A stretch of DNA of 64,000 nucleotides from an uncultured Candidatus Saccharibacteria bacterium (lineage in GTDB: Bacteria; Patescibacteriota; Minisyncoccia; Phycocordibacterales; Phycocordibacteraceae). Below the pieces are notes generated by a model. The model searched no databases. It saw only the letters and a list, made by a program, of their open reading frames with translations, and was not told the origin of the DNA. A program made the position numbers and the translations under genes. Below, piece by piece: positions 8,366-39,903 of this stretch; position 1 is the first letter of the stretch, and each line of letters starts with the position of its first letter. The DNA lies in NCBI GenBank assembly GCA_964357395.1, contig CAYHLC010000002.1:41033-105032 (forward strand), in the 5' to 3' direction.

Positions 8366-9394
8366 GTGCAGACGGTATATGTAGGACTCTCGGGAGGCGT
8401 GGATAGCGCCGTTGCAGCGTACCTCCTCAAGGAGGAGGGCTACCGCGTCGTAGGCGCGTTCATCAAGGGCTGGGAACCAGATTTCCTCCCGTGTACTGGT
8501 GTCGAGGATCGCCTAGCAGCTATGCAGGTAGCGGCACACCTACAGATCCCATTTGTTTCGTATGATCTTAGCGAGGAGTATAAGAAATCGGTCGTAGACT
8601 ACTTCATCGCCGAGTACAAAGTAGGCAGGACACCGAACCCCGACGTTATGTGCAACCGCACTATCAAGTTTGGTGCGTTTTGGGAGCGGGTCCGCGCCGA
8701 CGGCGCCGACTTTATAGCTACAGGACACTACGCCCGAAATCCCCAAGGCGACGCCTTGGGGATTTCGGATGACAAAGAGAAGGATCAAACGTATTTCCTC
8801 TGGACTCTCACCAAGGACGATCTTGCACACACACTGTTCCCGATAGGAAAGTATAAGAAGAGAGAAGTTCGGAAGATAGCAGAAAAGATTAAGCTGCCTA
8901 ACGCCGCAAGGCGAGATTCCCAGGGCCTCTGTTTCCTTGGACACGTCGATATGCACGCCTTTCTGAAGCGTTACCTACCTACTACCGTCGGTACCATATA
9001 TGATACCGATGGCGCAAAAGTGGGTGAGCATGATGGTGCTTGGTTCTATACCCTCGGGCAGCATGTGCCAGTTTCTGGTGACAAGCGCCTGTACGTAGTT
9101 AGCAAGGATGTGGACAGGAATGAACTCGTAGTAGCTGAAACACCCAATTCTGAACGAGGTCGGATCTCATTCACGCTAACCAACGTGAGCTGGGTGTCGG
9201 GGACAGCCCCAACTGGCAAGGTCTTGGTACAGTACCGCTACCACGGTCCCCTGGTCCCTGCCAGCGTTGCGGATTCTGAGCGAGATCGGATCTCGCTCAG
9301 CCTCGCAGAGCCGGTACTCGCAGCTCCTGGCCAGTCGCTCGTCGTCTATTCTGCCAACGGGAAGCTCTGCCTCGGCGGCGGCGTCATCGTTTGA
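8366..9394 (+). CDS. mnmA: tRNA-specific 2-thiouridylase MnmA
   Basis: PP-loop SGGVDSAV, mid-region DQTYFL, and a typical C-terminal barrel. Confidence 0.9.
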   Translation: MQTVYVGLSGGVDSAVAAYLLKEEGYRVVGAFIKGWEPDFLPCTGVEDRLAAMQVAAHLQIPFVSYDLSEEYKKSVVDYFIAEYKVGRTPNPDVMCNRTIKFGAFWERVRADGADFIATGHYARNPQGDALGISDDKEKDQTYFLWTLTKDDLAHTLFPIGKYKKREVRKIAEKIKLPNAARRDSQGLCFLGHVDMHAFLKRYLPTTVGTIYDTDGAKVGEHDGAWFYTLGQHVPVSGDKRLYVVSKDVDRNELVVAETPNSERGRISFTLTNVSWVSGTAPTGKVLVQYRYHGPLVPASVADSERDRISLSLAEPVLAAPGQSLVVYSANGKLCLGGGVIV

Positions 9395-9615
9395 CATTGG
9401 TGCGAGGCCGGGCTACTTTACTCGGTATGTCGTTTAACCAACCATCAGGAGTACAGAGCCCTCAGCGGGATGAGCGGGCAGCCAAGGCAGCCCCAAAAGG
9501 CGGGTGGGCCATCTACCGTTTTTGGAGAGGTGAAGGGTACTCGCGTGGCTGGGCACTAGAACTAGCTATAGCCTCGCTAGTCGCGGGCGCAATTTTTGCA
9601 GCCTGGCGAGCGTAG
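9391..9615 (+). CDS. Small hypothetical protein
   Basis: 74-aa ORF with a C-terminal hydrophobic segment. Weak support. Confidence 0.25.
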   Translation: MTLVRGRATLLGMSFNQPSGVQSPQRDERAAKAAPKGGWAIYRFWRGEGYSRGWALELAIASLVAGAIFAAWRA

Positions 9616-9643: not shown

Positions 9644-10471
9644 ATGACGGAAATAGTGAAGGGCGATGGATCCCGAGAGCTCTTCAATATTCACAAACTT
9701 GCAGACTCATTGGCCCGCTCTGGCGCCAACAAGGACCTCGCGATCCGTGTGTCCGAGCAGATTGCCTCGTCGATACAAGACGGCATGTCGACAACCGAGA
9801 TATACAGAAACGCATACAAGATCCTGCACAAAGAGGAGCGCATTGCTGCAGCCCGGTACTCCATGCGCCGCGCTATATTGGAACTCGGCCCGACTGGATA
9901 TCCGTTCGAGGACTATGTGTCGGAGCTGATGAGGGCGAAGGGGTACGAAGTCCGCACCCGCGTCATGGTTCCTGGTAGATGCATCGAGCACGAGGTGGAC
10001 GTCGTGATGACCAAGGACGGCAAGACTATCGGCGCGGAACTCAAGTTCCATAACCAACCTGGATTTAAGACGGATGTGAAGATTGCCCTGTATGTCAAAG
10101 CTCGGTTCGACGATATCGACCAAGCGGTACGCGAGACGCACAAGGAGCGCGAGATCCACGAGGGATGGCTGATCACCAACACCAAATTTACTGACCACGC
10201 TATCCGCTACGCAAGCTGCGGGGGCATCAACCTGCTTGGGTGGGACTACCCAAACAAAGGGAACCTCGACGATCTCATCCGCGAGACTGGCGTGTACCCG
10301 ATCACCGTGCTCACCTCATTAACTGGCGCGGAGAAGAATAGACTCCTCGCAAGCCAGGTTCCACTCTGCAGCATGGTGGCAGAGAATCCAGCACTCCTCA
10401 GGAATGCTGGTGTTCCAGATAAGAAAGTGGCAGGAGTGATAGCCGAGTCTACAGCGCTCTGTAAAGTCTAG
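9644..10471 (+). CDS. ATP-cone domain fused to an Mrr-type (PD-(D/E)XK) restriction-endonuclease catalytic domain
   Basis: Residues 1-90 IVKGDGSRELFNIHKL..RYSMRRAILE fit the ATP-cone. FEDYVSELMRAKGYEV..EHEVDVV..ELKF..GWLITNTKFTDHAIRYAS..INLLGWD fits the Mrr_cat core. Confidence 0.7.
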   Translation: MTEIVKGDGSRELFNIHKLADSLARSGANKDLAIRVSEQIASSIQDGMSTTEIYRNAYKILHKEERIAAARYSMRRAILELGPTGYPFEDYVSELMRAKGYEVRTRVMVPGRCIEHEVDVVMTKDGKTIGAELKFHNQPGFKTDVKIALYVKARFDDIDQAVRETHKEREIHEGWLITNTKFTDHAIRYASCGGINLLGWDYPNKGNLDDLIRETGVYPITVLTSLTGAEKNRLLASQVPLCSMVAENPALLRNAGVPDKKVAGVIAESTALCKV

Positions 10472-10472
10472 T

Positions 10473-11312
10473 ATGTCGGGCTTCTACAAACCGAATCGCA
10501 ACGAGGCCTGGAACTATGGGGGACTGAAGTGGACGCTGTCGCGTTCCAAGATTGACCTGTTTGAGGAGTGTCAACGCTGCTTCTACATCGACAACAAGCT
10601 CGGCACTGCGCGGCCACCTGGATTCCCGTTCAACCTCAACTCGGCAGTAGACGCATTGCTCAAGAAGGAGCTGGATACCCACCGCGCAAACGGGACGCAG
10701 CACCCTCTTGCTAAGGCATATGGAATAGACGCAGTGCCGCTCCAGGACGAGCACATGGACGAATGGCGTGACGCACTCAGCCGCGGTGTTAAGGTACTGC
10801 ACAAGCCAACGGGGCTCTTGGTACGCGGAGCGGTCGACGATATCTGGGTCAACAAGGCTGGCGAACTAATCGTCATCGACTACAAGGCGACGAGCAAGGA
10901 CTCGAAGATAGAGTCACTCGACGAGGACTGGCACCGCGGATACAAAAGGCAGATGGAGATCTATCAGTGGCTGTTGCGGCAAAACGGGTTTAAGGTGTCT
11001 GCAACAGGGTACTGGTTCTATGCCAACGCTACTAGGGATCGCGAGGCATTTGATGGCAGGCTCGACTTCGAGCTCACACTCGTCCCATACACCGGCAACA
11101 CAGATTGGATAGAGGATACACTCATCCGCCTCAAGGAATGCCTTGATAGCGACGTCATACCGCCAGCGGGAGACGACTGCGACTACTGTAAGTACCGCGA
11201 GGTTGTAGGCAAAAAATTAATCGCCCAGCACGCTCTGACCAAGAAGGTAGCAGAACCAGCAAAGGAATCAAAAAAGAAAGACAACAACGACATAACAAAG
11301 CCACTCTTCTAA
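10473..11312 (+). CDS. PD-(D/E)XK nuclease, Cas4/RecB-like with putative Fe-S cysteines
   Basis: Core motif GELIVIDYKAT plus QMEIYQWLL, with an N-terminal CQRC and a C-terminal CDYC. Starts 2 nt after the previous gene. Confidence 0.65.
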   Translation: MSGFYKPNRNEAWNYGGLKWTLSRSKIDLFEECQRCFYIDNKLGTARPPGFPFNLNSAVDALLKKELDTHRANGTQHPLAKAYGIDAVPLQDEHMDEWRDALSRGVKVLHKPTGLLVRGAVDDIWVNKAGELIVIDYKATSKDSKIESLDEDWHRGYKRQMEIYQWLLRQNGFKVSATGYWFYANATRDREAFDGRLDFELTLVPYTGNTDWIEDTLIRLKECLDSDVIPPAGDDCDYCKYREVVGKKLIAQHALTKKVAEPAKESKKKDNNDITKPLF

Positions 11313-11324: not shown

Positions 11325-12059
11325 ATGGACCTCCAGGCAACGAACCCAGCTCAGTATGATTCCCCTGATCTGAACTGGGGAATAATTGGAGCGGAGGACA
11401 ACCCCACTAGGATCTTTTTTAGGGCAGCGCTTGACGAACTGCTTGGGCAGGATGTGTTACATGGCAGGGTTCTGGATGCTGGATGTGGAGTGGGGCACCT
11501 CTTTAATTGGCTCAAGGACAAAGGAGTTACGGAAGTGGTTGGGATAGACCCTTCGGGGCGGAATATCCAGATAGCGGGAGAGCGATATCCGTCAGTGGAA
11601 CTGCATCAATGCACCATCGACGAATATGCAAAACAAGCAAAGAAGAAGTTTGACTACATTTTTGTAGTACTTGTTTTTGAGCATATTCGAGATTTGAGGC
11701 AGGCATGCACTGATCTTAGAGGACTCATGCATACTGGTGGCGACCTGTACGTCATATCCGGAGATATGGATTACCACATCACAACGGGCAAGGATATTAG
11801 AAAGAACTTAATTAGTATCGACGTAGTACAGGAACTTGGTGACGGTGCACTTGAAACACGCGTAGTGAGAGGAGCGAGGCATGGAGTGGAAACGACCATG
11901 TACGATATCGTCAGGCCCACTGAACACTACCGGACGATGGCCAATGAGGCTGGGTTCGAGCTTACTTATGAAGCATCATTTCGTGGACCTATCGGTATGC
12001 CTCCGGAACTTCAGGCCCCGAATCCAATGTCACACGGTTTCAGGTTCAAGGCTGTGTGA
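11325..12059 (+). CDS. Class I SAM-dependent methyltransferase (small-molecule type, not an obvious DNA MTase)
   Basis: Motif I VLDAGCGVGHL. No DPPY/NPPY motif. Confidence 0.75.
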   Translation: MDLQATNPAQYDSPDLNWGIIGAEDNPTRIFFRAALDELLGQDVLHGRVLDAGCGVGHLFNWLKDKGVTEVVGIDPSGRNIQIAGERYPSVELHQCTIDEYAKQAKKKFDYIFVVLVFEHIRDLRQACTDLRGLMHTGGDLYVISGDMDYHITTGKDIRKNLISIDVVQELGDGALETRVVRGARHGVETTMYDIVRPTEHYRTMANEAGFELTYEASFRGPIGMPPELQAPNPMSHGFRFKAV

Positions 12060-12224: not shown

Positions 12225-12503
12225 GTGAACATGATAAAGCGGAACTTGTTTCGGGAGAAAGTGATACAGATTGTAAGGGGAATCAGGAAAGGTAAGGTGA
12301 TGACATACAAGGAGGTCGCGGCGCGGGCCGGGCACCCCGGCGCTGCGCGAGCAGTGGGTGCCATCATGCGAGTAAATAAGGACAAGAGCATGCCCTGCCA
12401 CCGCGTCATCCGCTCTGACGGCACTCCCGGCGGCTACAATGGATTGCAGGGCACAAAGAGCAAGCGTGTGCTGCTCCTTAAGGAAGGTGTGCGCCTAAAA
12501 TGA
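12225..12503 (+). CDS. ogt: Methylated-DNA-protein-cysteine methyltransferase (Ogt/MGMT) DNA-binding/active-site domain protein
   Basis: Active-site motif PCHRVI and HTH region TYKEVAARAG. GTG at 12225 or ATG at 12231. Confidence 0.8.
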   Translation: MNMIKRNLFREKVIQIVRGIRKGKVMTYKEVAARAGHPGAARAVGAIMRVNKDKSMPCHRVIRSDGTPGGYNGLQGTKSKRVLLLKEGVRLK

Positions 12504-13129
12504 AATCAAAGAAGACCAAGAATCCGGTCCACGAACTTCTGCGGAATCGGTGGAGTCCTCGTTCGTTTTCGAGTGAGGATATTACTGACACCGAGCTCGC
12601 GACCATACTCGAGGCGGCTGCCTGTGCGCCAAGCGCCTTTAACAAGCAGCCGTGGCAGTATCTCTATGCGCGTCGGGGCACGCAGACTTTTGAAAAAATG
12701 CTTTCCTGCATAGCACCGATGAATGCTACGTGGGCCAAGAACGCCGCAGTCCTCATGTTCGGAGTGCTCACTAAGGATTTTGATGGCGGCCGGACTAACT
12801 TATGGGCCGAGCATGATATGGGAGCAGCGGAGATGTCGATGTATGTGCAAGCAACTGCGCTTGGCATCTATGGCCACACAATTGCTGGCTACTGGCATGA
12901 CCCACGCAATACGGTAGATGACTATCCAGGTTCAGTCGGTTTTGATAAGGAGGAAGCAAAGAAACTATTTGTAATACCAAAGGGTTACGAGCCTTATGAC
13001 TTCCTAGCTTTCGGCAGACTTGGCGCCCCAGAATTGTTACCTGCTGAGTATCAGGAAGCTGAGCGCGCAGACAAACCAATAGCTGCAATCGAGACCTTTG
13101 CCTTTAAGGACGAGTTTCCTAAAGCTTAA
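12500..13129 (+). CDS. Nitroreductase family protein
   Basis: Nitroreductase N-terminal motif RRSxRxF..AP..SA.N.QPW (WSPRSFSS..LEAAACAPSAFNKQPWQY). Confidence 0.85.
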   Translation: MKSKKTKNPVHELLRNRWSPRSFSSEDITDTELATILEAAACAPSAFNKQPWQYLYARRGTQTFEKMLSCIAPMNATWAKNAAVLMFGVLTKDFDGGRTNLWAEHDMGAAEMSMYVQATALGIYGHTIAGYWHDPRNTVDDYPGSVGFDKEEAKKLFVIPKGYEPYDFLAFGRLGAPELLPAEYQEAERADKPIAAIETFAFKDEFPKA

Positions 13130-13812
13130 CTCCAGTCGATGGGCGAGCGGCCATTTTGGGTGAGGTAGTCGTTTGCTAGCTTGAAGTGGCCGTTACCGAG
13201 GAAGCCGTTGTGGGCGGAGAGCGGGGACGGGTGCGCGGACTCGAGCGCCAGATGCTTTGATGCATCGATCAGTACAGCCTTTTTGCGAGCAAATGCTCCC
13301 CAGAGCATAAAGACGACATGCTCTTGCGTGTGCGATATCGCAGCGATTGCTGCGTCGGTAAAGAGGTGCCAGCCCATATCAGCATGCGAGTTTGCCTGGC
13401 CGCTGCGAACAGAAAGCGATGCATTGAGGAGGAGTACACCCTGCTCTGCCCATCTTGTTAAGTTTGGATCGCGCGAGGGTGGTGTGCCGAACTCAGCAGC
13501 AATTTCTTTAAAGATATTCTGGAGCGATGGTGGGACTGGACTGGGAGGCACTGTAGAGAAGGCGAGTCCGTCCGCAACGCCCGGCGTGTGGTATGGATCC
13601 TGGCCGAGTATGACGACGCGGACCTCGCTCGGCTTCACCAGCTCAAACGCGCGGAACACACGTGATGGGTGTGGGAAGACGGGACCCTTGAGGTACTCCT
13701 CGCGCACAGCACTTGAGAGCTCTACAAAGTAAGGCTTGCCGAACTCCTCTTCAAGAAGGAGTCTCCATTCGGGGGCAATCTTTACGTCTTGCGCGGGGCC
13801 GGGCATCACCAA
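13126..13812 (-). CDS. ung: Uracil-DNA glycosylase (family 1)
   Basis: Motifs ILGQDPYH, GLAFS and LLLNASLSV, plus a His-containing C-terminal motif. Confidence 0.9.
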   Translation of the reverse strand: MVMPGPAQDVKIAPEWRLLLEEEFGKPYFVELSSAVREEYLKGPVFPHPSRVFRAFELVKPSEVRVVILGQDPYHTPGVADGLAFSTVPPSPVPPSLQNIFKEIAAEFGTPPSRDPNLTRWAEQGVLLLNASLSVRSGQANSHADMGWHLFTDAAIAAISHTQEHVVFMLWGAFARKKAVLIDASKHLALESAHPSPLSAHNGFLGNGHFKLANDYLTQNGRSPIDWS

Positions 13813-30712: not shown

Positions 30713-31455
30713 AGTTCAAGTCATATTTCATTGCCCCGTTCATCTTCCAGGCAACCATTTGGCGCATCATTATGCGTCCATTTTTTTATTACTTCGGACG
30801 CTTGCAGGTGAGCGGACTTGAAAATCTGCACGGCATCAAGGGCCCGGTTATCTTTGCCGCCAATCACCCGAGCGAGATAGACGCGATCATACTCCCACTC
30901 GCACTCCCGCTCTGGTCACGCTTCATGCCACTGTTCTACGTCGTACGCGAGCCAAAGTATTACCAAGACCCATACTTCAAGTGGCGCCGTTTTTTGTACT
31001 TGGGCTGGGTCTTCAAGCTCCTCGGGGCATTTCCGATCCGCTCGGGCGCGCATGACTATGCGCTGTCGCTCAAAAACCATGTGCAAATTCTGAATGATGG
31101 CGGCTCGATCTGCATCTTCCCGGAGGGCGTGCTCTCGCGTGGCGGAGTTATCGGTGAGGCACACGGTGGGGTGGGGTACCTCGCACTCGCAACCGGTGCC
31201 ACAGTGGTCCCTGTATACTTCGGTGGTATGGATACAGTGAGCGGCAAAAGTTTTTTTAGTCGCACGAGCTCATTCCGCACCCTGATTGGCGCTCCTCTTA
31301 CTGCAGTGGATGTTTTGCCAGCGGATCTTGAACCAGCTTCGATTGAGGCATGTAAAACGGTCGCAGCGGCCGTCCTTGCTCGAGTCCAGCAGATGCAGCA
31401 TGCTGGCAGTCGACAGCCAGCAGTTCAGACACAAAAGTATACGTATCGCATATGA
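30709..31455 (+). CDS. plsC: 1-acyl-sn-glycerol-3-phosphate acyltransferase family (PlsC-like)
   Basis: H(x)4D acyltransferase motif NHPSEID and FPEG motif CIFPEGVLSRGG. Start ATG at 30709 (MKFKSYF). Confidence 0.75.
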   Translation: MKFKSYFIAPFIFQATIWRIIMRPFFYYFGRLQVSGLENLHGIKGPVIFAANHPSEIDAIILPLALPLWSRFMPLFYVVREPKYYQDPYFKWRRFLYLGWVFKLLGAFPIRSGAHDYALSLKNHVQILNDGGSICIFPEGVLSRGGVIGEAHGGVGYLALATGATVVPVYFGGMDTVSGKSFFSRTSSFRTLIGAPLTAVDVLPADLEPASIEACKTVAAAVLARVQQMQHAGSRQPAVQTQKYTYRI

Positions 31456-33497
31456 GTTTTCTTTATCGATTTCTGTTTTTGATATTCAAAAAATCTGCCC
31501 CCGAGATGTCGAGAACGGAGCTTGAGGCCGTTGAGAGTGGAGATGTGTGGTTTGATCGTGAGCTTTTTTCGGGTAGACCGGATTTTTCTGTTTTGGATCA
31601 GCTTGTACTGCGAGACCTTACTGACGAGGAGCAAGCATTTCTGCGTGGCCCTGTGGAGCGTGTGTGCCAAATGGCAGATGAATGGACCATCACGACCGGT
31701 AATAAGGATTTGCCCAAAGAGGTGTGGGAGTATCTGAAGAAGGAAAAGTTTTTTGGCATCTTGGTGCCCAAGCTGTACGAAGGACTTGGTTTCTCACACA
31801 ACGCCTTTTCAATAATCGTTAAAAAGATTATGACCCGCGCATTTGCTGCTGGCTCAACCATGCTCATACCCAACTCTCTCGGTGCAGTGGGACTTATCGT
31901 TGAGCATGGCACTCCTGAGCAACAGGCTCACTACTTGCCGCGGCTCGCCTCAGGGGAGGAAGTGCCATCCTTTGTTATGACAGGACCTTTTGCCGGCTGC
32001 GATCTTGAGCGCATGCCGGATACAGGGCAAGTGGAGTATGGTGACTATAACGGCGAGAAGGTGCTTGGCATCCGCTTGTCATGGGAAAAGCGTTACATCA
32101 CTCTTGCCCCGGTTGCTACTGTTCTTGAGCTCGCATTTCAGACAATGCGTGATGGAGAGAATGTAGGTATTACCTGTGCACTCGTTCCCACCAGCCACCC
32201 TGGGGTAGTGATCGGGCGCCGTCACTGGCCGGCGCGCCAAAACTTTATGAACGGGCCGACGTCAGGTAAGGATGTCTTTATACCGATGAGTATGGTGCTT
32301 GGGGGAGAAAAGATGTTGGGCCAAGGTTGGAGGATGACAATGGAGCAGTTGCATGCGGCACGAGCGTTTTCAATTCCATCCCTCGGTACCGCTGCAGCGC
32401 AGTTTGTGGCCAGGAATGTTGGTGCATACGCGCGACTGCGCGAGCAGTTCAAGCGGCCAATAGGGACCTTTGAGGGTGTCCAAACAAAGCTAGCGAGTAT
32501 TGCCGCGGACGCCTTCATGCTTGAGTGCGCGCGCAAGGTGAGTATGGCCGCCTTGGACAGCGGCACTGTGCCCGCAGTGATCTCAGCGATACTCAAGTAC
32601 CAATCAACCGAGCGTGCACGGACGGCCGTACTTGATGGTATGGACATACTTGGCGGGCGAGGAGTATTTGAGGGGCCTCGGAATTTCCTTTTCAACATCT
32701 ATCAGATGATCCCTATAATAATTACTGTAGAGGGAGCTAATATTTTGACCCGGAGCTTTATTACCTTTGGGCACGGTCTTATGCGCTGTCACCGTTACTT
32801 ACTCGATGAGTTTATGGGACTCAGCAGTAATGACCACAAACGGTTTGGGCGGGCGTTTATTGCACACGTGAGACACGTCGTTGTTTCACTTATACGAGTT
32901 CTGCTGCTGAATGTCGCCGCACTCTTTTGGGGTCGCATGGCATACCGAAGTCATATTCGGCTCACGAGCGCGCGTTTTGCACTCCTTACCGAGGTATTAC
33001 TCGCGGTGTACGGCGGCACCATTAAGCGTCGCGAGCGTATCTCGGGGGCTATGGCTGACATCCTCAGCGAGATGTATCTGATGAGTTGTGTGCTCCGCTC
33101 GGCCGACCCTGGTGATCCTGATGTGCAAACACTCGTTCAGTGGATACATATGCGCGGCAGAGTTGTAATCCAGCAGCGCTTTACCGACGTGCTGCAAAAT
33201 CTACCCAGCGCACTGCTATCGGTTGCTGTTCGCTTAATTCTGTTTCCGTTTGGGAGATGCGCACAGCAGCCGAATAGTGAAATGGACAAGCGTGTGGCCC
33301 GCCTAATCATGAACGCTGGCCCCATACGTGACCTCATTACTGACGGAATATATGTTTCTACTGATCCAGGGGATAAGACAGGGTGCCTTGAAGCAGGTTT
33401 GCAGTACATTTTGCGCAACGAGCCTCTGCCGACTGAGCTATTGAGACGTATAATAGATGTTGACGACTTTGACAAACAGGAATTAGCGGAGCTATGA
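31452..33497 (+). CDS. fadE: Large acyl-CoA dehydrogenase of the FadE type
   Basis: Long collinear similarity to E. coli FadE recalled from memory (LTDEEQAFL.GPVE, GITCALVPT, GPTSGKDVF, GQGWRM, ITVEGANILTRS, CHRYLLDE). Confidence 0.75.
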   Translation: MSFLYRFLFLIFKKSAPEMSRTELEAVESGDVWFDRELFSGRPDFSVLDQLVLRDLTDEEQAFLRGPVERVCQMADEWTITTGNKDLPKEVWEYLKKEKFFGILVPKLYEGLGFSHNAFSIIVKKIMTRAFAAGSTMLIPNSLGAVGLIVEHGTPEQQAHYLPRLASGEEVPSFVMTGPFAGCDLERMPDTGQVEYGDYNGEKVLGIRLSWEKRYITLAPVATVLELAFQTMRDGENVGITCALVPTSHPGVVIGRRHWPARQNFMNGPTSGKDVFIPMSMVLGGEKMLGQGWRMTMEQLHAARAFSIPSLGTAAAQFVARNVGAYARLREQFKRPIGTFEGVQTKLASIAADAFMLECARKVSMAALDSGTVPAVISAILKYQSTERARTAVLDGMDILGGRGVFEGPRNFLFNIYQMIPIIITVEGANILTRSFITFGHGLMRCHRYLLDEFMGLSSNDHKRFGRAFIAHVRHVVVSLIRVLLLNVAALFWGRMAYRSHIRLTSARFALLTEVLLAVYGGTIKRRERISGAMADILSEMYLMSCVLRSADPGDPDVQTLVQWIHMRGRVVIQQRFTDVLQNLPSALLSVAVRLILFPFGRCAQQPNSEMDKRVARLIMNAGPIRDLITDGIYVSTDPGDKTGCLEAGLQYILRNEPLPTELLRRIIDVDDFDKQELAEL

Positions 33498-34627
33498 AGG
33501 GTTTTATAAACGCATTGCTTGACCTTATTAGGCTCTTTGTGCCTCTTTTTCCTAGTAGCGCACCCGGAGTTGCGTTTATCGTCCATATGCGCAATGTGGA
33601 TGACGTATATCGCAAATTTCCTCTATTTAAGATATTTCCTGAATCGTTCACATTGAGATTTTTCCGATTTATGTGGCCAATTACTGTTTCGCACATTACT
33701 GGCCTCCATAGTCTCGTAACAGGCAATGCAATACCGGGGTGGATTATTTCAATACCATTGACAGCAAGACAAATGCTTGAGAATAGAGAGTATGCCAAAC
33801 GCAAAATTCTGCAGGCAGTCAGGGTGGCAGAGCACCGCGGCGCGAGGCTTGCATCTCTCGGCGCACTTACTGCCTCGCTTACACACGGAGGCACATACAT
33901 TGCTGATCGCACTCCAGTTGTTGTCACAACAGGTCACGCGTATACCGTGCATAATGTTACACAGACAGTGCTCAATATTATGCAGGCGGTTGGTCGCACA
34001 CCAGGTAATACAACCCTTGCTATTGTCGGCGCAAATGGCTCCATCGGCTCTAATTGCGCTCGAGTGCTTGCGCGATCCACGTTTAAAAAGATCCTTCTTG
34101 TTGACATAGTGCGCAGATCGGATGGCCTTGATGAGTTGTGCGATGAGGTTAAAAATCATTGCCAAGCGACGGAGGTGATTATTGACCACAGGATTAGTTC
34201 AATCAAAGAGGCAGACATTATTATCGCTGCTACGAACGCGCCTGAGGCACTCATCAGAGCAGACGATCTGAAATCCGGCACGGTCGTTGTTGATGACGCT
34301 CAGCCAACAGATGTTGACAGTTCAGTGTTCGAGCGAGACGACGTCCTTGTTCTTGAAGCGGGAGCTGTCCGCACACCTGGCATTAGTGCGAATTTTGATA
34401 TTGATTTGCAAAATAGTGACGACAACTACTCCTGTCTCGTAGAGTCCTTCATTCTGGCGGCGACGGAAAATTATGAGGCGCATGTCCTCGGTAGGCCAAC
34501 ACTCGAGCAAATAGACACTATGGGGAGTGAGGGGGCACGCCTCGGTTTTCGCACTGCGAACTTTCAAAACATGTTCGGGCTCATTGATGAAAAGAAAATA
34601 GCCCACATACGCTCAAAACAGGTGTAG
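33494..34627 (+). CDS. Acyl-ACP/acyl-CoA reductase-like oxidoreductase (cyanobacterial AAR-like, Rossmann fold)
   Basis: TTGHAYTV, LAIVGANGSIGSNCARVL, IIIAATNAP and VVDDAQP parallel the AAR motifs TTGNTHTAYV, VAVVGATGDIGSAVCRWL and FIVWVASMP (from memory). Confidence 0.55.
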   Translation: MKGFINALLDLIRLFVPLFPSSAPGVAFIVHMRNVDDVYRKFPLFKIFPESFTLRFFRFMWPITVSHITGLHSLVTGNAIPGWIISIPLTARQMLENREYAKRKILQAVRVAEHRGARLASLGALTASLTHGGTYIADRTPVVVTTGHAYTVHNVTQTVLNIMQAVGRTPGNTTLAIVGANGSIGSNCARVLARSTFKKILLVDIVRRSDGLDELCDEVKNHCQATEVIIDHRISSIKEADIIIAATNAPEALIRADDLKSGTVVVDDAQPTDVDSSVFERDDVLVLEAGAVRTPGISANFDIDLQNSDDNYSCLVESFILAATENYEAHVLGRPTLEQIDTMGSEGARLGFRTANFQNMFGLIDEKKIAHIRSKQV

Positions 34628-34640
34628 AATTAATCTATAC

Positions 34641-36269
34641 ATGCTTTTTGTTGGAATCACCCTTACCGGCTGGGTCGCCATCATCATGGCACTCTCCTTA
34701 AGTATTCTCTCGGGCATAATGTTTATGCTCGGCACAAAAAAGCTACACTATTTGTGGGGTGCGTTTACAGCAACCGGAGCAGTATGGGGTATTGGATTTT
34801 ATATGGTTTCGGTCGCTGGTGATTACGAAAGTGCACAATTTTGGTGGCGCTTTGCTCTAATTGGCGTTATTTGTGCGCCATTTACTTTTTTTCATTTCGT
34901 CACAGAGTTTATTCATTTGCAGTTATCTCGAAGCACTCGAATACTTGTATTCGGGCTGTTTTACTCGGTGTGTGCCGTATTTGTAACTTTGGCACTTACA
35001 ACAAACTTGCTCGTAAACGAGCTTACTTTCTTATTCGGTGAAGTCTACTACGATACGCCTCCGGCAGCACTGCATCCATTCTTTACACTGCTTTACGTCT
35101 CTATAATCTCATTTTCTTACTTGTTGATTTTTAAGTCACTCTATTTTGGCTCCTTGCCTGCGGCAGAGCGCAGGCAGGCATGGTATCTTATTGCCGGTTC
35201 CGGTATCGGGCTTATGGGTGGGAGTATGGATTTGCTGCTGATCTACGACGTACTGTATGTGCATCCAATTAGAAATTTGCTGGTTATAGTCGGTACTGCA
35301 ATCGTGGGCTTTTCAATCCTAAAGTATAGACTGTTTGATGTGAAAGTGGTCACTGCCCAGTTCCTCACTTTTTTCATTGTTGCATTTTCAATAATCAGGC
35401 TTGCGACCTCTGCATCCTCGCAGGAGATAATTTTTAACACTTTGATGCTTGGGGTTACTGTTGCTGTAGGAGTCTACCTCATCCGAAGCGTACGCAGAGA
35501 AGTGGAGCAGCGCGATGAGATTCAGGGCCTGTATGTGCAGCTTGAAGAGAAGAATAAAAAGCTCGTAGAGCTGGATAAGCTGAAGTCCCAGTTCCTCTCT
35601 ATTGCAACGCACGAGCTTCGTACGCCGCTCACCATTGTGCGCAACTTCATTGCCCTAATGCAGGACGGCAGCTACGGCAAGGTGCCGGAGGCAATGGCGG
35701 AGGCAGGGCGGCAGGTCTTTGACCGCGTCACCGACATGGCCAAGTCGGTGGACACGTACCTCAACGTCTCACGCATCGAGCAAGGCAAGATCACCTATGA
35801 CTTTGCCGACGCCAACCTTAGCACCCTTGTTGTCGAGGGTGTCGCTGGTATGCAAGAGGGGGCTAAGAAGCGCGATCTTGCCCTAACACTCAAAGTGGTG
35901 CAGGGTAGCGAGAAGTTGATGGCCAAGCTGGACGCACCGAAGATCAATGAGGTGATCAACAACTTGATCGATAACTCGCTCAAGTACACCCCCAAAGGCT
36001 CGGTGACTCTCACGTTGGAGAAGGTAGGGAAGATTGCCCGCCTCACAATTGTAGACACAGGTGTTGGTATGACCCAAAAGACGATGGACGGACTCTTCCA
36101 ACTCTTTAGTCCTGGCGAGGACTCGAAGAAGCTTAACCCTGCGTCAACTGGCGTCGGTCTCTACATCACCAAGGCGCACGTCGAGGCCCACAAGGGCACT
36201 CTCACCGCCCACTCCGATGGCAAAGGAAAAGGGAGCAAGTTTGTGCTAGATATGCCTCTTGCACTCTGA
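34641..36269 (+). CDS. Sensor histidine kinase with an N-terminal ~7-TM sensor region (no adjacent response regulator)
   Basis: H-box SIATHELRTPLT, N-box LIDNSLKYT, G1 box TIVDTGVGM, and about 7 hydrophobic helices in the N-terminal 330 aa. Confidence 0.85.
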   Translation: MLFVGITLTGWVAIIMALSLSILSGIMFMLGTKKLHYLWGAFTATGAVWGIGFYMVSVAGDYESAQFWWRFALIGVICAPFTFFHFVTEFIHLQLSRSTRILVFGLFYSVCAVFVTLALTTNLLVNELTFLFGEVYYDTPPAALHPFFTLLYVSIISFSYLLIFKSLYFGSLPAAERRQAWYLIAGSGIGLMGGSMDLLLIYDVLYVHPIRNLLVIVGTAIVGFSILKYRLFDVKVVTAQFLTFFIVAFSIIRLATSASSQEIIFNTLMLGVTVAVGVYLIRSVRREVEQRDEIQGLYVQLEEKNKKLVELDKLKSQFLSIATHELRTPLTIVRNFIALMQDGSYGKVPEAMAEAGRQVFDRVTDMAKSVDTYLNVSRIEQGKITYDFADANLSTLVVEGVAGMQEGAKKRDLALTLKVVQGSEKLMAKLDAPKINEVINNLIDNSLKYTPKGSVTLTLEKVGKIARLTIVDTGVGMTQKTMDGLFQLFSPGEDSKKLNPASTGVGLYITKAHVEAHKGTLTAHSDGKGKGSKFVLDMPLAL

Positions 36270-36293
36270 TACTAAGCGTGCTTTAATATTCAC

Positions 36294-36530
36294 ATGTCAA
36301 ATGAGGGCGGGGAGAGGCCCATTCACATGCACCCGCTCGTATGGATGCTGATTGGCGCAGCAGCAGGGGCGGGTGTCACTACATTTGTTGGTATTGGATA
36401 TCCGATCTCGATTAAGATGACGGAGGCATCGATGATCGATATCGACGGCATAATCTTTTTAAATTCGTGTATTGGAGCCATAGCCTTTGGTCTTGCCTCA
36501 ATATATCTCGATCGACGCACCTACTGGTAG
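36294..36530 (+). CDS. Small membrane protein
   Basis: 78-aa ORF with two hydrophobic helices. Confidence 0.3.
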   Translation: MSNEGGERPIHMHPLVWMLIGAAAGAGVTTFVGIGYPISIKMTEASMIDIDGIIFLNSCIGAIAFGLASIYLDRRTYW

Positions 36531-36797
36531 CAATTGCCGCTTTCTCGTCAGGGGGAGGGAAGTATATTTGCATTAGATCTTCCAGACATACAGTGTATAA
36601 TTGCTCTGTGAGCGAGGGCAATGATGGCACGTTGTATGAGCGTGTGTACCGTACACACAAATCTTGGTCATCAGATGACTCACTTGGGGAGATGATTAGT
36701 GAGGACCCTGCTACTGCAGCAAAAGGGCGCAGCCGTTTAATCACTTTAAGTATTGTGCTCCCTCCGCTATTTACGTATATGCTCATATTGGCTTTTA

Positions 36798-36932
36798 ATG
36801 CGAGTATTTCAACTAACTAGAAAGAACGGTACCCGCACCATTTCTGCATTTCCTCACAAGGGCACCCTTACTGCCCACTCCGATGGCAAGGACAAAGGCT
36901 CCCAATTCGTACTCGAACTACCGCTTCTTTAG
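36798..36932 (+). pseudogene. Remnant duplicate of the histidine-kinase 3' end (HKGTLTAHSDGKDKGSQFVLELPLL*)
   Basis: 36855-36932 encodes 25 aa about 80% identical to the last 26 aa of the HK at 36190-36269. A possible 44-aa ORF from the ATG at 36798. Confidence 0.45.
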
Positions 36933-37712
36933 GGTTGGATTACTCTTTGTAGTATTAATATCAAGTCTCGTCGCCTCCTCAAAGGCGAGATCAAACACTT
37001 TTTTCATAGCATCTGCGATTGCAGCATTCTCAATATGAATTGCCACCAAGTCCTTATGCAGCATAAATCCGACTGTGTCGTCAAAGATTGCGAAATCTGA
37101 ATTGAACGCCCAGCGCTCGGGCGGGATAAGTTTGATCTGGTCAAGCGGTGCATAGTGCTTGCGTATGTAGTCTCCTTGCTCCGAAAAGGGATGGATGCCA
37201 TACATCGCGATACCTAACTCCGTACGTCTTTGCACATATTTTGGCAAATAATCGGGCAGACTTCGCTGTATATCATCGGCTGATGAAACTACGCGCATGA
37301 CTTTATCGCGTACTCGCAAGGTCTCCTCAAACGATTGGATCAGACCGGCCTTACCCTCAAGAATTCTAACTCTTGGTTTTTGTTTGGTATCTCTGTGCAG
37401 AGATTTTAGATCGGGGAGTAGGTCGTTAATGCTGCGTTCGATTTTTGCCTGCTTCTCAGCAGCGTCCGCTGCTCTTTCTACCAACATGTCTGGCGATGAG
37501 GCAACGTACTGCTTGGTCGTCTCGCCGACAGACACACTTGCCAAGCCTTTTTCGCGCAGAGATTCAAGAACCACATAGGCAGAGCTTCGATTGAGCTCCG
37601 CCTTGCTTGCCACCTCGTGTGCTGTCGCAACCTCAAGCTCTAGGAGCGCAAGGTACGCCCGTGCCTCCTTGTCTGAGAGGCCAAACTTGGTCAGTGCAGC
37701 TAGGGGTTTCAT
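36918..37712 (-). CDS. TrmB-family transcriptional regulator
   Basis: N-terminal HTH FGLSDKEARAYLALLELEVATAHEVASKAELNRSSAYVVLESLREKGL typical of TrmB, and a C-terminal TrmB-like regulatory domain. Confidence 0.65.
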   Translation of the reverse strand: MKPLAALTKFGLSDKEARAYLALLELEVATAHEVASKAELNRSSAYVVLESLREKGLASVSVGETTKQYVASSPDMLVERAADAAEKQAKIERSINDLLPDLKSLHRDTKQKPRVRILEGKAGLIQSFEETLRVRDKVMRVVSSADDIQRSLPDYLPKYVQRRTELGIAMYGIHPFSEQGDYIRKHYAPLDQIKLIPPERWAFNSDFAIFDDTVGFMLHKDLVAIHIENAAIADAMKKVFDLAFEEATRLDINTTKSNPTLKKR

Positions 37713-37996
37713 ATGTTAATAAAGTCTAACAACCAAAAGCATTTTATGCAATAACTTGTACACACATGTCAAAGCGAAAAGACATAGCGAGAGAATACAT
37801 AGAGATGAAAGCCCAGTTCACGTTAATGCGCGGTAACAGCACTTGACGGTCGACAAACTCTTGTGTTTTTCACAGGTGTTATCCATTTACAACAGCCGAC
37901 ACTGACCTAATCTAAGCATGGTAGTAATATGTCACATCACTTTCGGCCATTTCGGGAAGTTGGGGCTGTTATGGACATAGACATACAGTCAAAATC

Positions 37997-39136: not shown

Positions 39137-39155
39137 TAATTTAAGCTTGCAAGCT

Positions 39156-39290
39156 ATGTCAGACAAAGAAAGTGCAGAGTTGAAGGAGATCGCGGCAGAG
39201 ACCCCTTTTACCGAGGTAGAGCTGCAGGGACAAGCGATGAAGGCTGGTCACATGATCGGCAGCGCTAACCCCCTAGGGGCAGCACAGTAA
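39156..39290 (+). CDS. Possible 44-aa peptide MSDKESAELKEIAAETPFTEVELQGQAMKAGHMIGSANPLGAAQ
   Basis: Short ORF followed by a GC hairpin (TGGGGTG-GCAA-CACCCCA, 39302-39319) just upstream of the GNAT gene. Weak. Confidence 0.2.
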   Translation: MSDKESAELKEIAAETPFTEVELQGQAMKAGHMIGSANPLGAAQ

Positions 39291-39336
39291 GTGTTGGGTG
39301 GTGGGGTGGCAACACCCCAATGCCCAAATAAAAAGT

Positions 39337-39819
39337 ATGAATCCAACCAAACGACTCACCTTTCATCCACTCACTCCCGAATGGGCTGGATTGATTTTTG
39401 AGCATAATACAGGAAATGTTAAGGATTACTTTTATAACTTTAAGTCAGAGGAGGATGCACGCGTTTGGGTTGCGCAGGCAATAGCAGCTGCCAAGGATAC
39501 TGATAAGGAAGAGTTTGTGATACTCGCTAATGGCGAGTTTGTCGGTATGATTTCGTCGCGCACAAATAGTGATAGCACTGGTGACATTGGCATGTGGATC
39601 GCAGAATCACAACAGCGAAAAGGGTATGGCCGCGAGGCGCTGAAGGCAGCAATTGATTATCTGAAAGCCAAAGGAGTTCTGAAGATTGTGTATGAGATAG
39701 AAAAAGGCAATGTAGCAAGCATGGCCCTCTCTACCTCACTGGGCATGAAGCCAGCTTCGAGCGATGACAAGTATCACCAATTTATTCTTGATCTCGTCTC
39801 ACCACAATGGCCTGGCTAG
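39337..39819 (+). CDS. GNAT family N-acetyltransferase (RimJ/RimL-like)
   Basis: Acetyl-CoA motif QQRKGYGREALKAAIDYL. Start ATG at 39337 (MNPTKRL); the track ORF begins at 39298. Confidence 0.75.
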   Translation: MNPTKRLTFHPLTPEWAGLIFEHNTGNVKDYFYNFKSEEDARVWVAQAIAAAKDTDKEEFVILANGEFVGMISSRTNSDSTGDIGMWIAESQQRKGYGREALKAAIDYLKAKGVLKIVYEIEKGNVASMALSTSLGMKPASSDDKYHQFILDLVSPQWPG

Positions 39820-39903
39820 TTGCAATCGCTTGTTCTCGAGACGGTTTACTACGGCGCTCTCCTCCGTCGTCATGGGATGTAATATTTGCATGAATTCATA
39901 TGA

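What the first reader, a model, noticed from the sequence alone, without database searches (positions are those of the whole stretch)
9644..11312. Gene pair: ATP-cone-Mrr nuclease followed by a Cas4-like PD-(D/E)XK Fe-S nuclease, a candidate nucleotide-sensing defence or repair module
Seen in sequence: the 275-aa protein at 9644 fuses an N-terminal ATP-cone (IVKGDGSRELFNIHKL...RYSMRRAI) to an Mrr-type restriction-endonuclease core (E-x-ELM..GYEV, EHEVDVV, ELKF, GWLITNTKFTDHAIRYAS). Two nucleotides later a second gene encodes a PD-(D/E)XK nuclease (GELIVIDYKAT, QMEIYQWLL) bracketed by Cys pairs (CQRC...CDYC) like Cas4/AddB Fe-S nucleases. Established knowledge: the ATP-cone is the ATP/dATP allosteric sensor of ribonucleotide reductases and NrdR; Mrr is a modification-dependent type IV REase; Cas4-like nucleases are common in defence islands. 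Inference: a nuclease whose activity is gated by (d)NTP pools, paired with an end-processing nuclease. This could be an uncharacterised anti-phage module, or a damage-responsive repair unit, since Ogt-like, nitroreductase and ung genes follow immediately.
Basis: partly seen in the sequence, partly recalled or inferred. Interest (0 to 1): 0.7.

Follow-up and report, generated by a model that had tools for sequence, protein, structure and literature searches.

The report
Two unrelated nucleases, adjacent by synteny
The two adjacent nuclease genes are real and correctly read, but they are independent, chromosomally conserved genes of a Patescibacteria (CPR) bacterium rather than a dedicated defence pair; the first belongs to an already catalogued but never tested ATP-cone nuclease family shared with Archaea.

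Summary
Both ORFs and all quoted motifs are confirmed.

P1 (9644-10471) has three domains: ATP-cone, Mrr_cat and AF1548-like_C. It aligns end to end (37% identity, E 2e-60) with the native 265-aa Archaeoglobus AF1548 protein. The architecture is therefore old, widespread in Archaea and CPR, and already named in databases, but it has never been characterised.

P2 (10473-11312) is a stand-alone RecB/Cas4/Dna2-type nuclease with an invariant CxxC...CxxC. It scores below the Cas4 cut-off.

The "module" reading fails:
- The pair lies in a conserved housekeeping block (sigma/HARE, hyp412, YceG, MnmA, P1, P2, Ogt-like, UDG, M13 peptidase, AlaRS).
- P1-P2 adjacency holds only where P1 identity is at least 54%. 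Elsewhere membrane-protein genes are inserted, or P2 is missing.
- 26 of 53 assessable P2-centred loci lack P1, and 7 archaeal P1 loci lack P2.
- P1 co-diverges with its neighbours, whereas P2 alone has been replaced horizontally.
- There is no PADLOC system hit, no CRISPR array and no viral homologue of P1.

Most likely P1 is an ATP/dATP-gated housekeeping DNA endonuclease and P2 is a separate DNA-end-processing nuclease. Interest is modest and rests on the untested ATP-cone nuclease family.

The parts
9644..10471 (+). P1: 275-aa ATP-cone / Mrr_cat / AF1548-like_C nuclease, an orthologue of archaeal AF1548
   Evidence: ORF. Pfam. 1Y88 match at E 8e-32. End-to-end alignment to native AF1548 (P0241): 37% identity, E 2e-60. 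AlphaFold2 pLDDT 87.3.
9650..9868 (+). P1 ATP-cone domain (residues 3-75), with the motif K6-G-D8-G9-x2-E12-x-F14-x3-K18-L19
   Evidence: PF03477, 32.9 bits against a cut-off of 25.8. Foldseek matches to NrdR 9fvr and RNR R1. The profile hits E. coli NrdA residues 6-65 and NrdR 48-97 weakly, at E 0.05-0.2. K6, G9 and K18 are invariant or nearly so over 65 sequences.
9896..10237 (+). P1 PD-(D/E)XK nuclease core (Mrr_cat, residues 85-198), with catalytic E89, D119 and E132-x-K134
   Evidence: PF04471, 31.8 bits against 21. E89, D119, E132 and K134 are invariant in 65 of 65 sequences. They align with the catalytic D38/E51/K53 predicted for AF1548 in PMC1821046.
10295..10456 (+). P1 C-terminal helical domain (AF1548-like_C, residues 218-271)
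   Evidence: PF22357 scores 17 bits for this protein, below its cut-off of 23.9. Homologues P0061 and P0078 pass at 26-28 bits. The region is covered by the 1Y88 alignment.
10473..11312 (+). P2: 279-aa stand-alone RecB/Cas4/Dna2-type PD-(D/E)XK nuclease
10569..10580 (+). P2 N-terminal cysteine pair, C33-x2-C36
   Evidence: Invariant in alignments A2 and A3.
10836..10964 (+). P2 catalytic motifs: D122/D123, D136-Y-K138 and Q160-x3-Y164
   Evidence: Invariant columns in A2 and A3.
11178..11189 (+). P2 C-terminal cysteine pair, C236-x2-C239
   Evidence: Invariant in A2 and A3.
11220..11309 (+). P2 variable Lys/Pro-rich tail ending in a conserved T-x-x-L-F at the C-terminus
   Evidence: The tail has low pLDDT. 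91 of 120 homologues end in LF, and 65 of those 91 have T at position -5.
8366..9394 (+). mnmA (tRNA 2-thiouridylase), the most persistent upstream neighbour of P1
   Evidence: Pfam. It lies within 1.2 kb upstream of P1 in all 43 loci with an MnmA match.
12225..12503 (+). 92-aa Ogt-like protein (MGMT C-terminal domain only, PCHR motif present), a persistent neighbour of P2
   Evidence: PF01035, 89.9 bits. It lies within 1 kb of P2 in 30 of 31 loci. In L033 it lies next to P2, away from P1.
13126..13812 (-). Uracil-DNA glycosylase, a syntenic block member
   Evidence: PF03167. Present in most related loci.

Best explanation
These are two independent chromosomal nucleases that are neighbours only because they sit in a lineage-wide conserved block of a Paceibacteria-type Patescibacteria chromosome.

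P1 is the bacterial orthologue of the archaeal AF1548 family. It has an N-terminal ATP-cone, a catalytically intact Mrr-type PD-(D/E)XK core and a helical C-terminal domain. The following is inferred by analogy with RNR and NrdR, and is not shown here:
- ATP and dATP compete for the cone.
- Their ratio switches the oligomeric state, and so switches DNA binding and Mg2+-dependent cleavage by D119, E132 and K134.
- DNA incision or DNA turnover is thereby coupled to the nucleotide pool, in an organism that cannot make nucleotides de novo.

P2 is a separate 4-Cys RecB/Cas4/Dna2-type nuclease that processes DNA ends. It probably acts in repair, next to the Ogt-like and UDG genes. It may be tethered to a partner protein through its C-terminal T-x-x-L-F tail.

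The two are probably co-transcribed in this genome, since only one base separates them, but they are not a co-inherited system.
For: Shown:
- Domain and fold assignments.
- Catalytic and cone residues invariant across 65 P1 sequences of 39-74% identity.
- P1 aligns end to end with the native 265-aa AF1548 protein, and the three-domain architecture occurs in at least 100 archaeal clusters, including Ferroglobus placidus, Geoglobus and Archaeoglobus.
- 446 representatives at 50% identity match at E 1e-30 or better, and nearly all of the best 150 listed are 265-295 aa and matched end to end.
- The whole block sig_HARE, hyp412, YceG, MnmA, P1, P2, Ogt, UDG, M13, AlaRS is syntenic.
- P1 was present in 21 of 21 P2-centred loci that carry an upstream block gene.
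- P1 divergence tracks its neighbours: rho 0.80-0.88 to the window, and Mantel 0.52-0.76.
- P1's median identity (57.5%) is similar to that of MnmA (58%) and AlaRS (61%).
- GC content is even across the region.

Decoupling of P1 and P2:
- Adjacency statistics.
- Inserted DUF7282 and MgtC genes.
- No P2 in the archaeal loci.
- Replacement of the P2 gene alone, mapped to 10470-11164.

Background:
- ATP/dATP competition at ATP-cones controls RNR activity (PMC4390871).
- It also controls NrdR oligomerisation and DNA binding (abstract of 10.1101/2024.05.27.596032).
- CPR bacteria cannot synthesise nucleotides (abstract of 10.64898/2026.07.13.738296).
Against: - No biochemical data exist for any member of the P1 family. 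AF1548 was only predicted to be a restriction endonuclease (PMC1821046).
- The CPR cone has G, A or S where archaeal orthologues and RNRs have the Arg of K-R-D-G, so nucleotide binding or specificity could differ.
- 'Housekeeping' is inferred from conservation and synteny, not from genome-wide presence/absence or essentiality data.
- P2's history of horizontal replacement and its weak matches to phage exonuclease families fit a purely core repair enzyme less well.
- The one-base spacing and 44 directly adjacent cases among 75 loci still allow functional cooperation within this clade.
Confidence: 0.55

Rival explanations
1. P1 and P2 form a clade-specific DNA-repair operon. P1 makes a nucleotide-gated incision and P2 resects the end. 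They act together with the downstream Ogt-like alkyltransferase and UDG.
For: - The genes are co-directional with a one-base spacer.
- Direct adjacency is found in 44 of 75 P1-bearing loci.
- Ogt-like lies within 1 kb of P2 in 30 of 31 loci, and UDG is syntenic.
- P2's fold relatives are end-resection enzymes.
Against: - Unrelated membrane-protein genes (DUF7282, MgtC) sit between P1 and P2 in 20 loci, and four more loci have them with no P2.
- P2 often occurs without P1 (26 of 53 loci), and in archaea P1 occurs without P2.
- P2 alone was exchanged horizontally.
- In L033, P2 and Ogt lie 7 kb from P1 on the opposite strand.
Confidence: 0.2
2. The pair is an uncharacterised anti-phage module, with a (d)NTP-sensing Mrr-type restriction nuclease and a Cas4-like partner.
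For: - The Mrr_cat family includes type IV restriction enzymes.
- P1's core resembles those of MspJI and the ligand-gated defence nucleases Can2 and Cdn1.
- P2 gives weak Cas4 and PADLOC Cas4 matches.
- P2 shows horizontal replacement.
- One P2 homologue (L049) lies next to an Eco57I-type methylase and a large ATPase.
Against: - P1 is vertically inherited at a fixed place in a housekeeping block.
- P1 keeps 37% identity end to end with its archaeal orthologues.
- There are no PADLOC system hits, no Mrr_N domain, and no viral or PHROG relatives of P1.
- The window has no CRISPR array.
- The pair does not co-occur outside one clade.
- The window's real accessory region lies elsewhere, at 31-49 kb.
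Confidence: 0.07
3. P1 is not a working nuclease. It is an NrdR-like, nucleotide-sensing DNA-binding regulator that uses the nuclease fold and the C-terminal helical domain to bind DNA.
For: - Its architecture parallels NrdR: an ATP-cone plus a DNA-binding module. NrdR's cone controls DNA binding.
- It is a small protein of fixed length and conserved position.
Against: - E89, D119, E132 and K134, together with H116, H136, N179 and T180, are invariant in 65 of 65 sequences, and the catalytic D, E and K also align in AF1548. From my own knowledge, regulators derived from nuclease folds usually lose these residues.
- No operator-like repeats were looked for or seen.
Confidence: 0.08
4. The P1 family works with membrane transport or ion (Mg2+) homeostasis proteins rather than in DNA metabolism.
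For: - MgtC and/or a DUF7282 membrane protein directly follow P1 in 24 of 75 CPR loci.
- CorA and DUF389 flank P1 in Ferroglobus, MscS precedes it in Archaeoglobus, and an AA-permease-Usp gene adjoins it in Geoglobus and L143, some with overlapping reading frames.
Against: - The Archaeoglobi cases share local synteny, so they are not independent.
- Three other archaeal loci (L142, L144, L145) have no adjacent transporter.
- The window itself has no MgtC or DUF7282.
- The intact nuclease active site is left unexplained.
Confidence: 0.04

Closest known systems
AF1548 of Archaeoglobus fulgidus (PDB 1Y88; Pfam Mrr_cat + AF1548-like_C; COG1787)
   Same: P1 is an orthologue. It is 36-37% identical, and the 1Y88 alignment covers the nuclease and C-terminal domains. 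Native archaeal proteins carry the same N-terminal ATP-cone and align with P1 end to end. The catalytic D, E and K align.
   Different: The crystallised chain lacks the ATP-cone. Archaeal cones have the canonical K-R-D-G, where CPR has K-G/A/S-D-G. The genomic contexts differ. No member of the family has a tested function.
Mrr, the type IV modification-dependent restriction endonuclease
   Same: It shares the Mrr_cat catalytic domain and the D...(E/Q)xK active-site configuration (PMC3424549).
   Different: P1 has no Mrr_N winged-helix domain for recognising modified DNA. It has an ATP-cone and an AF1548-like_C domain instead. It is vertically inherited in a housekeeping block rather than patchy or island-borne.
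NrdR and the ATP-cones of ribonucleotide reductases
   Same: They share the ATP-cone fold and the K-x-D-G-x2-E-x-F-x3-K-[IL] motif. The likely logic is the same: the ATP/dATP ratio controls oligomerisation and output.
   Different: In P1 the output domain is a nuclease, not a Zn-ribbon DNA binder or a reductase. Nucleotide binding by P1 is untested.
Cas4 / AddB / Dna2 / EXO5 / RecE family of PD-(D/E)XK end-processing nucleases
   Different: P2 is below the Cas4 HMM cut-off (31.9 against 65). Its Cys spacing is CxxC...CxxC. There are no cas genes or CRISPR array and no helicase partner. It has an extra tail ending in LF.
Ligand-gated PD-(D/E)XK defence nucleases (Can2, Card1, Cdn1: CARF + nuclease)
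   Same: The design principle is the same: a nucleotide-sensing domain fused to a restriction-fold nuclease. Weak structural matches were found and weak PADLOC CARF-nuclease hits at E 1e-3 to 1e-2.
   Different: The sensor is an ATP-cone rather than CARF. There is no cyclase, CRISPR or CBASS context. The inheritance pattern is that of a core gene.

Membership tests
ATP-cone (PF03477) | Profile match above the curated cut-off | tested here: met
   32.9 bits against 25.8, residues 3-75.
ATP-cone (PF03477) | ATP-cone fold (beta-hairpin plus four-helix bundle) | tested here: met
   The AlphaFold2 model is confident at the N-terminus. Foldseek matches NrdR 9fvr/9fxk, E. coli and A. aeolicus RNR R1, and the NrdB cone 5olk.
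ATP-cone (PF03477) | Conserved nucleotide-contacting residues (K-R-D-G ... E ... K) | tested here: inconclusive
   K6, G9, E12 and K18 are conserved, but the Arg position is G, A or S in CPR. Archaeal orthologues keep K-R-D-G.
ATP-cone (PF03477) | Binds ATP/dATP and changes oligomeric state | not testable with these tools
   This needs ITC, SEC-MALS or similar on purified protein.
Mrr type IV restriction endonuclease | Mrr_cat catalytic domain with an intact D...(E/Q)xK | tested here: met
   PF04471, 31.8 bits against 21. D119, E132 and K134 are invariant.
Mrr type IV restriction endonuclease | N-terminal Mrr_N winged-helix domain for recognising modified DNA | tested here: not met
   No such Pfam match. 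The N-terminus is an ATP-cone.
Mrr type IV restriction endonuclease | Cleavage dependent on DNA modification | not testable with these tools
   This needs an enzyme assay.
AF1548 family (Mrr_cat + AF1548-like_C, with ATP-cone) | Full-length collinear homology to AF1548 and its orthologues | tested here: met
   1Y88 at E 8e-32. P0241: 37% identity over 270 aa, E 2e-60. Foldseek TM 0.78 on the target.
AF1548 family (Mrr_cat + AF1548-like_C, with ATP-cone) | AF1548-like_C profile above its cut-off | tested here: inconclusive
   P1 itself scores 17 bits against 23.9. Its close homologues score 26-28 bits.
Cas4 (TIGR00372) | Profile score above the curated cut-off | tested here: not met
   31.9 bits against 65.
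Cas4 (TIGR00372) | Genomic association with cas1/cas2 or a CRISPR array | tested here: not met
   No tandem array in the 64-kb window. No cas-like genes among the neighbours.
Cas4 / AddB Fe-S nucleases | Four-Cys cluster with one N-terminal and three C-terminal Cys (C...Cx2Cx5C) | tested here: not met
   The invariant pattern is C33x2C36 ... C236x2C239. It is a four-Cys staple with different spacing. The metal is unknown.
RecB-family PD-(D/E)XK nucleases (PDDEXK_1) | Profile above cut-off, D...DxK and QxxxY motifs, and fold | tested here: met
Known anti-phage defence systems (PADLOC-DB) | Match to a system-specific protein model | tested here: not met
   P1 gives only weak Csx1 and CARF-nuclease hits at E of 1e-3 or weaker. 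P2 gives only generic Cas4 models at about 32 bits.
Conserved two-gene module | Co-occurrence and shared evolutionary history of the two genes across lineages | tested here: not met
   Adjacency holds only at P1 identity of 54% or more. 26 of 53 P2 loci lack P1. 7 of 7 archaeal P1 loci lack P2. Mantel rho is 0.19, against 0.52-0.76 for P1 with other neighbours. P2 alone was replaced.

The most novel reading that the evidence does not exclude
The ATP-cone / AF1548 family, found in CPR bacteria and many Archaea, could be a so far unrecognised class of housekeeping nuclease whose DNA cleavage is switched by the ATP/dATP ratio. That would couple DNA degradation or repair incision directly to the deoxynucleotide pool. 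In nucleotide-auxotrophic CPR cells it could be a gate for salvaging DNA as a nucleotide source. It would be the first ATP-cone known to control an enzyme outside ribonucleotide reduction and its regulator NrdR.
Probability: 0.15. Interest if true: 0.65.

Novelty: new member of a known kind. Interest (0 to 1): 0.3.

Why it matters
The finding as stated, a new nucleotide-sensing defence or repair pair, does not hold up, so it should not be carried forward as a candidate defence system.

What remains is a useful pointer. An ATP-cone fused to an intact restriction-fold nuclease is a compact protein family of fixed architecture. It has at least 446 clusters at 50% identity, occurs in Archaea and CPR, has a crystal structure of two of its three domains, and has no known function. 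The only structure (1Y88) lacks the sensor domain, which may be why the family was filed as "restriction endonuclease".

Testing whether ATP or dATP gates its activity is simple biochemistry. It would extend ATP-cone allostery beyond RNR and NrdR.

Tried and rejected
I rebuilt it as A3.
- Literature searches for AF1548, 1y88, 'ATP-cone + Mrr / nuclease / endonuclease' and 'Patescibacteria + nucleotide salvage + nuclease' found no functional study of the family and no description of the fusion. Two searches failed on term syntax.
- The PDB search with the ATP-cone profile was dominated by spurious designed helical-repeat proteins. The genuine RNR and NrdR hits were only marginal, at E 0.05-0.2.
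- My first measure of P2 discordance (identity to the window only, rho -0.27) overstated the case. All-against-all Mantel tests gave 0.19 for P1-P2, but MnmA-AlaRS also gave only 0.30. I therefore rested the claim on the gene-by-gene table and the blastn boundaries instead.
- The apparent link between P1 and membrane transporters did not generalise beyond Archaeoglobi synteny, so I demoted it to a side note.
- The 'viral' P2 loci were not accepted as phage evidence. L049 carries YceG and other cellular genes.
- The promoter and terminator scan around the pair found no more sites than expected by chance.
- I rejected the idea that P1 is the Hjc-type Holliday-junction resolvase. Geoglobus encodes a separate Hjc 2 kb away, and Hjc is only a distant fold match.
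Full report
**1. Observation**

The window holds two co-directional ORFs at exactly the stated coordinates: 9644-10471 (275 aa, P1) and 10473-11312 (279 aa, P2). They are separated by a single base, TAG-T-ATG.

Profile searches support the domain calls above Pfam's curated cut-offs:
- P1: ATP-cone, 32.9 bits against 25.8, residues 3-75.
- P1: Mrr_cat, 31.8 bits against 21, residues 85-198.
- P2: PDDEXK_1, 53.3 bits against 22.

Residues 91-270 align with PDB 1Y88, the uncharacterised Archaeoglobus protein AF1548, at E 8e-32. The last ~55 residues are Pfam's AF1548-like_C. That model scores 17 bits for this protein and 26-28 bits for close homologues, against a cut-off of 23.9.

An AlphaFold2 model of P1 (pLDDT 87.3, pTM 0.79) matches 1Y88 (Foldseek E 4e-16, target TM 0.78). 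Its N-terminal part matches the ATP-cones of NrdR and of class I and III RNRs.

Two qualifications apply to P2:
- It does not reach the Cas4 equivalog cut-off (31.9 against 65).
- Its invariant cysteines are C33-x2-C36 ... C236-x2-C239. From my own knowledge, canonical Cas4/AddB enzymes have one N-terminal and three C-terminal cysteines.

**2. What organism and what kind of locus**

The exact proteins are on record from a 167,675-bp contig named "Patescibacteria group bacterium". Relatives come from Paceibacterota, Parcubacteria and Kaiserbacteria MAGs.

The surrounding genes are housekeeping:
- a sigma-70 region 4 / HARE-HTH protein, YceG and MnmA upstream;
- an Ogt-like protein, UDG, an M13 peptidase and AlaRS downstream;
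- further out, ribosomal proteins, DnaK/DnaJ, ScpAB, MraY and FtsW.

GC content is even (0.52-0.57) across the region. The window has no CRISPR or tandem array, no Rfam match and no tRNA.

The window's real accessory region is elsewhere. It comprises a lower-GC stretch at about 31-39 kb, a 2,561-aa RHS/SpvB/FG-GAP ORF at 39900-47585, and an IS200-type transposase at 48274-48948.

**3. Is the pair a module? P1-centred loci**

I fetched 47 loci encoding P1 relatives from species-representative genomes and mapped all window genes onto them. Almost the whole block (sig_HARE, hyp412, YceG, MnmA, P1, P2, Ogt-like, UDG, M13, AlaRS) is collinear.

The position of P2 relative to P1:

| Arrangement | Loci |
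|---|---|
| P2 directly adjacent | 28 |
| Same strand, 0.6-1.4 kb insert | 8 |
| P2 absent, with at least 2.5 kb of downstream sequence available | 6 |
| P2 elsewhere (L033: P2 with Ogt, 7 kb away, opposite strand) | 1 |
| Undetermined | 4 |

Direct adjacency occurs only where P1 identity is at least 54%. All the other arrangements occur at 54% or below. That is the pattern expected from ordinary decay of synteny.

The inserts encode a DUF7282 membrane-anchored protein and/or an MgtC-family protein.

Other adjacencies are kept more often than P1-P2. MnmA lies within 1.2 kb upstream of P1 in 43 of 43 loci, and Ogt-like lies within 1 kb of P2 in 30 of 31.

The methyltransferase (11325-12059) has no counterpart in any P1-centred locus. 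Its only match is in L100, a P2 locus without P1. The nitroreductase (12500-13129) has no counterpart anywhere.

**4. Reciprocal test: P2-centred loci**

I examined 80 P2-centred metagenome loci. Of the 53 with enough upstream sequence:
- 14 have P1 adjacent;
- 13 have P1 with an insert;
- 26 have no P1 and none of the other block genes.

In those P1-less contexts, P2 has no conserved neighbour. No neighbour cluster is shared by more than 3 of 29 loci.

Whenever an upstream block gene is present, P1 is present too (21 of 21).

Over all 75 P1-bearing loci the arrangements are:

| Arrangement | Loci |
|---|---|
| P1 > P2 | 44 |
| P1 > DUF7282 and/or MgtC > P2 | 20 |
| P1 > DUF7282 and/or MgtC, no P2 | 4 |
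| P1 alone | 4 |
| Contig ends | 3 |

P1 has no relative in IMG/VR or PHROGs. P2 has 8 IMG/VR hits, none with P1 nearby. At least one of these (L049) looks like a CPR chromosome fragment, since it carries YceG and a protease.

**5. Different evolutionary histories**

P1's identity to the window copy correlates with that of sig_HARE (rho 0.88), YceG (0.88), hyp412 (0.83) and MnmA (0.80). P2's does not correlate with P1 (-0.27) or with any other neighbour.

All-against-all Mantel tests give a smaller but consistent contrast:
- P1 with sig_HARE 0.76, with MnmA 0.57, with AlaRS 0.52;
- P1 with P2 0.19;
- MnmA with AlaRS only 0.30, so the matrices are noisy.

The gene-by-gene table settles the matter:

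| Loci | sig_HARE | MnmA | P1 | P2 | Ogt | UDG |
|---|---|---|---|---|---|---|
| L002-L006 (closest relatives) | 77-80% | 52-66% | 68-73% | 51-65% | 72-82% | 62-75% |
| L056, L057, L060, L061, L065 | 50-58% | 43-45% | 42-46% | 73-83% | 51-59% | 50-52% |

Within the window's own P1 cluster, four different P2 types occur. At the DNA level, similarity to L056 (74%) runs from 10470 to 11164, which is the P2 ORF and nothing else.

P2 alone has therefore been exchanged between lineages at the same chromosomal site, and the exchange is old. P1 was inherited vertically.

**6. The P1 family is older and wider than CPR**

I searched with the AF1548 sequence taken from the 1Y88 alignment. It returned archaeal proteins of 260-280 aa that nearly all carry PF03477, PF04471 and PF22357. 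One is a 265-aa protein 99% identical to the crystallised part (P0241). The deposited chain (199 residues) simply lacks the cone.

Members occur in Archaeoglobus, Geoglobus, Ferroglobus placidus DSM 10642, Korarchaeota, Bathyarchaeia, Aenigmarchaeota, Nanoarchaeota and Altiarchaeales. Databases already name them "Restriction endonuclease/ATP cone domain" or "ATP cone domain-containing protein".

P1 aligns with P0241 end to end: 37% identity over 270 aa, E 2e-60. The archaeal cone begins with the canonical K-R-D-G. In CPR that Arg is G, A or S.

Against 1.84 billion 50%-identity representatives, 446 proteins match at E 1e-30 or better. Nearly all of the best 150 are 265-295 aa and matched from residue ~4 to ~273. 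The architecture is fixed.

Seven archaeal loci were examined. None has a P2-like gene, and Geoglobus has a separate Hjc nearby.

The literature adds little:
- AF1548 was only ever predicted to be a restriction endonuclease, with catalytic D38/E51/K53 (PMC1821046).
- 1Y88 is filed under Mrr_cat/COG1787 (PMC3424549).
- I found no functional study and no paper on the fusion.

**7. Mechanism (inferred)**

Over 65 P1 sequences of 39-74% identity, the following are invariant: E89, D119, E132, K134, H116, E117, H136, D144, N179 and T180. The cone residues K6, G9, E12 and K18 are invariant or nearly so. The nuclease is therefore probably active, and the cone is probably functional.

In RNRs, competitive ATP/dATP binding to the cone sets activity (PMC4390871). 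In NrdR it switches oligomers between DNA-binding and non-binding forms. CPR bacteria cannot make nucleotides.

I therefore propose that P1 is a housekeeping DNA endonuclease whose oligomerisation, and hence DNA binding and cleavage, is set by the ATP/dATP ratio. No part of this proposal has been shown.

P2 is a separate end-processing nuclease of the RecB/Cas4/Dna2 type with a four-Cys metal site. Within this clade it travels with Ogt-like and UDG, which suggests a role in repair.

**8. Verdict**

The domain-level interpretation is sound. The "gene pair / defence module" interpretation is not supported.

P1 is a new member of an already catalogued but uncharacterised family. P2 is a new member of a large nuclease superfamily. 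Interest is modest (0.3) and rests on the untested idea of an ATP-cone-gated nuclease.

Noticed in passing
window 10470-11188 (P2 ORF), compared with L056, L057, L060, L061, L065 and L002-L006: P2 alone has been replaced horizontally at the same chromosomal site. It is 73-83% identical to copies in lineages whose flanking genes are only 42-59% identical, but only 51-65% identical to copies in the window's closest relatives. The DNA similarity is bounded by the ORF.
   Followed up: yes
window 11220-11309 (P2 residues 250-279): P2 has a variable Lys/Pro-rich, low-confidence tail that ends in a conserved T-x-x-L-F at the C-terminus. 91 of 120 homologues end in LF, and those without the tail are about 15 aa shorter. 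It looks like a short docking motif, perhaps for the sliding clamp or SSB, but it does not match the canonical QLxLF. No other ORF in the window ends this way.
   Followed up: partly
P0241 (265 aa), compared with PDB 1Y88 (199-residue chain): The only solved structure of the family lacks the N-terminal ATP-cone that the native Archaeoglobus protein and about 100 archaeal relatives carry. The sensor domain is therefore absent from the structural record.
   Followed up: yes
window P1 residues C113, C192, C242, C273 (nt 9980-9982, 10217-10219, 10367-10369, 10460-10462): P1 has four conserved cysteines spread over the nuclease and C-terminal domains: 65/65, 65/65, 61/65 and 58/65. The first three also align in AF1548.
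   Followed up: partly
L023, L026, L028, L029, L032, L034, L036, L039, L040, L041, L044 and 13 metagenome loci; L136-L141, L143: Membrane-protein genes recur next to P1-family genes. DUF7282 and/or MgtC directly follow P1 in 24 of 75 CPR loci. In Archaeoglobi the neighbours are CorA/DUF389, MscS/DUF432 and an AA-permease-Usp gene, some with overlapping reading frames. The pattern was not seen in three other archaeal loci.
   Followed up: partly
window 31452-48948: This is the window's real accessory region. It holds a lower-GC (0.48) stretch with an acyl-CoA dehydrogenase, a 7TM histidine kinase and a TrmB regulator, then a 2,561-aa RHS/SpvB/FG-GAP toxin-like ORF (39900-47585) and an IS200-type Y1 transposase (48274-48948).
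   Followed up: partly
window 12225-12503: The 'Ogt-like' gene encodes only 92 aa, the MGMT C-terminal DNA-binding domain alone, yet it keeps the PCHR active-site motif. It is the most faithful neighbour of P2, within 1 kb in 30 of 31 loci.
   Followed up: partly
window 11325-12059 and 12500-13129: The class I SAM methyltransferase and the nitroreductase have no counterpart in the related P1-bearing loci. The methyltransferase matches only in L100, a P2 locus without P1, and the nitroreductase matches nowhere. They look like lineage-specific insertions into the conserved block. The methyltransferase matches generic small-molecule methyltransferase families, not DNA methylase families.
   Followed up: partly
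window 9391-9615: The MnmA-P1 gap is 250 nt here, against 6-25 nt in most relatives. It holds a 74-aa TTG-start ORF with a hydrophobic C-terminus and no Pfam match, plus three weak terminator-like hairpins. A few relatives (L003, L021, L024, L043) have a gap of similar size.
   Followed up: no
L049 15-5723 (also L050 and L099): In a P1-less CPR lineage, the P2 homologue directly follows an Eco57I/TaqI-type N6-adenine methylase and a ~940-aa ATPase with an SMC/ABC-like P-loop. This context looks like restriction or defence. The ATPase is seen in 3 of 29 P1-less loci.
   Followed up: partly
L143 2163-3807: In one archaeal locus, an MjaI-type restriction enzyme and an N6/N4 methylase lie divergently upstream of the P1 orthologue. 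This was not seen in the other six archaeal loci.
   Followed up: no
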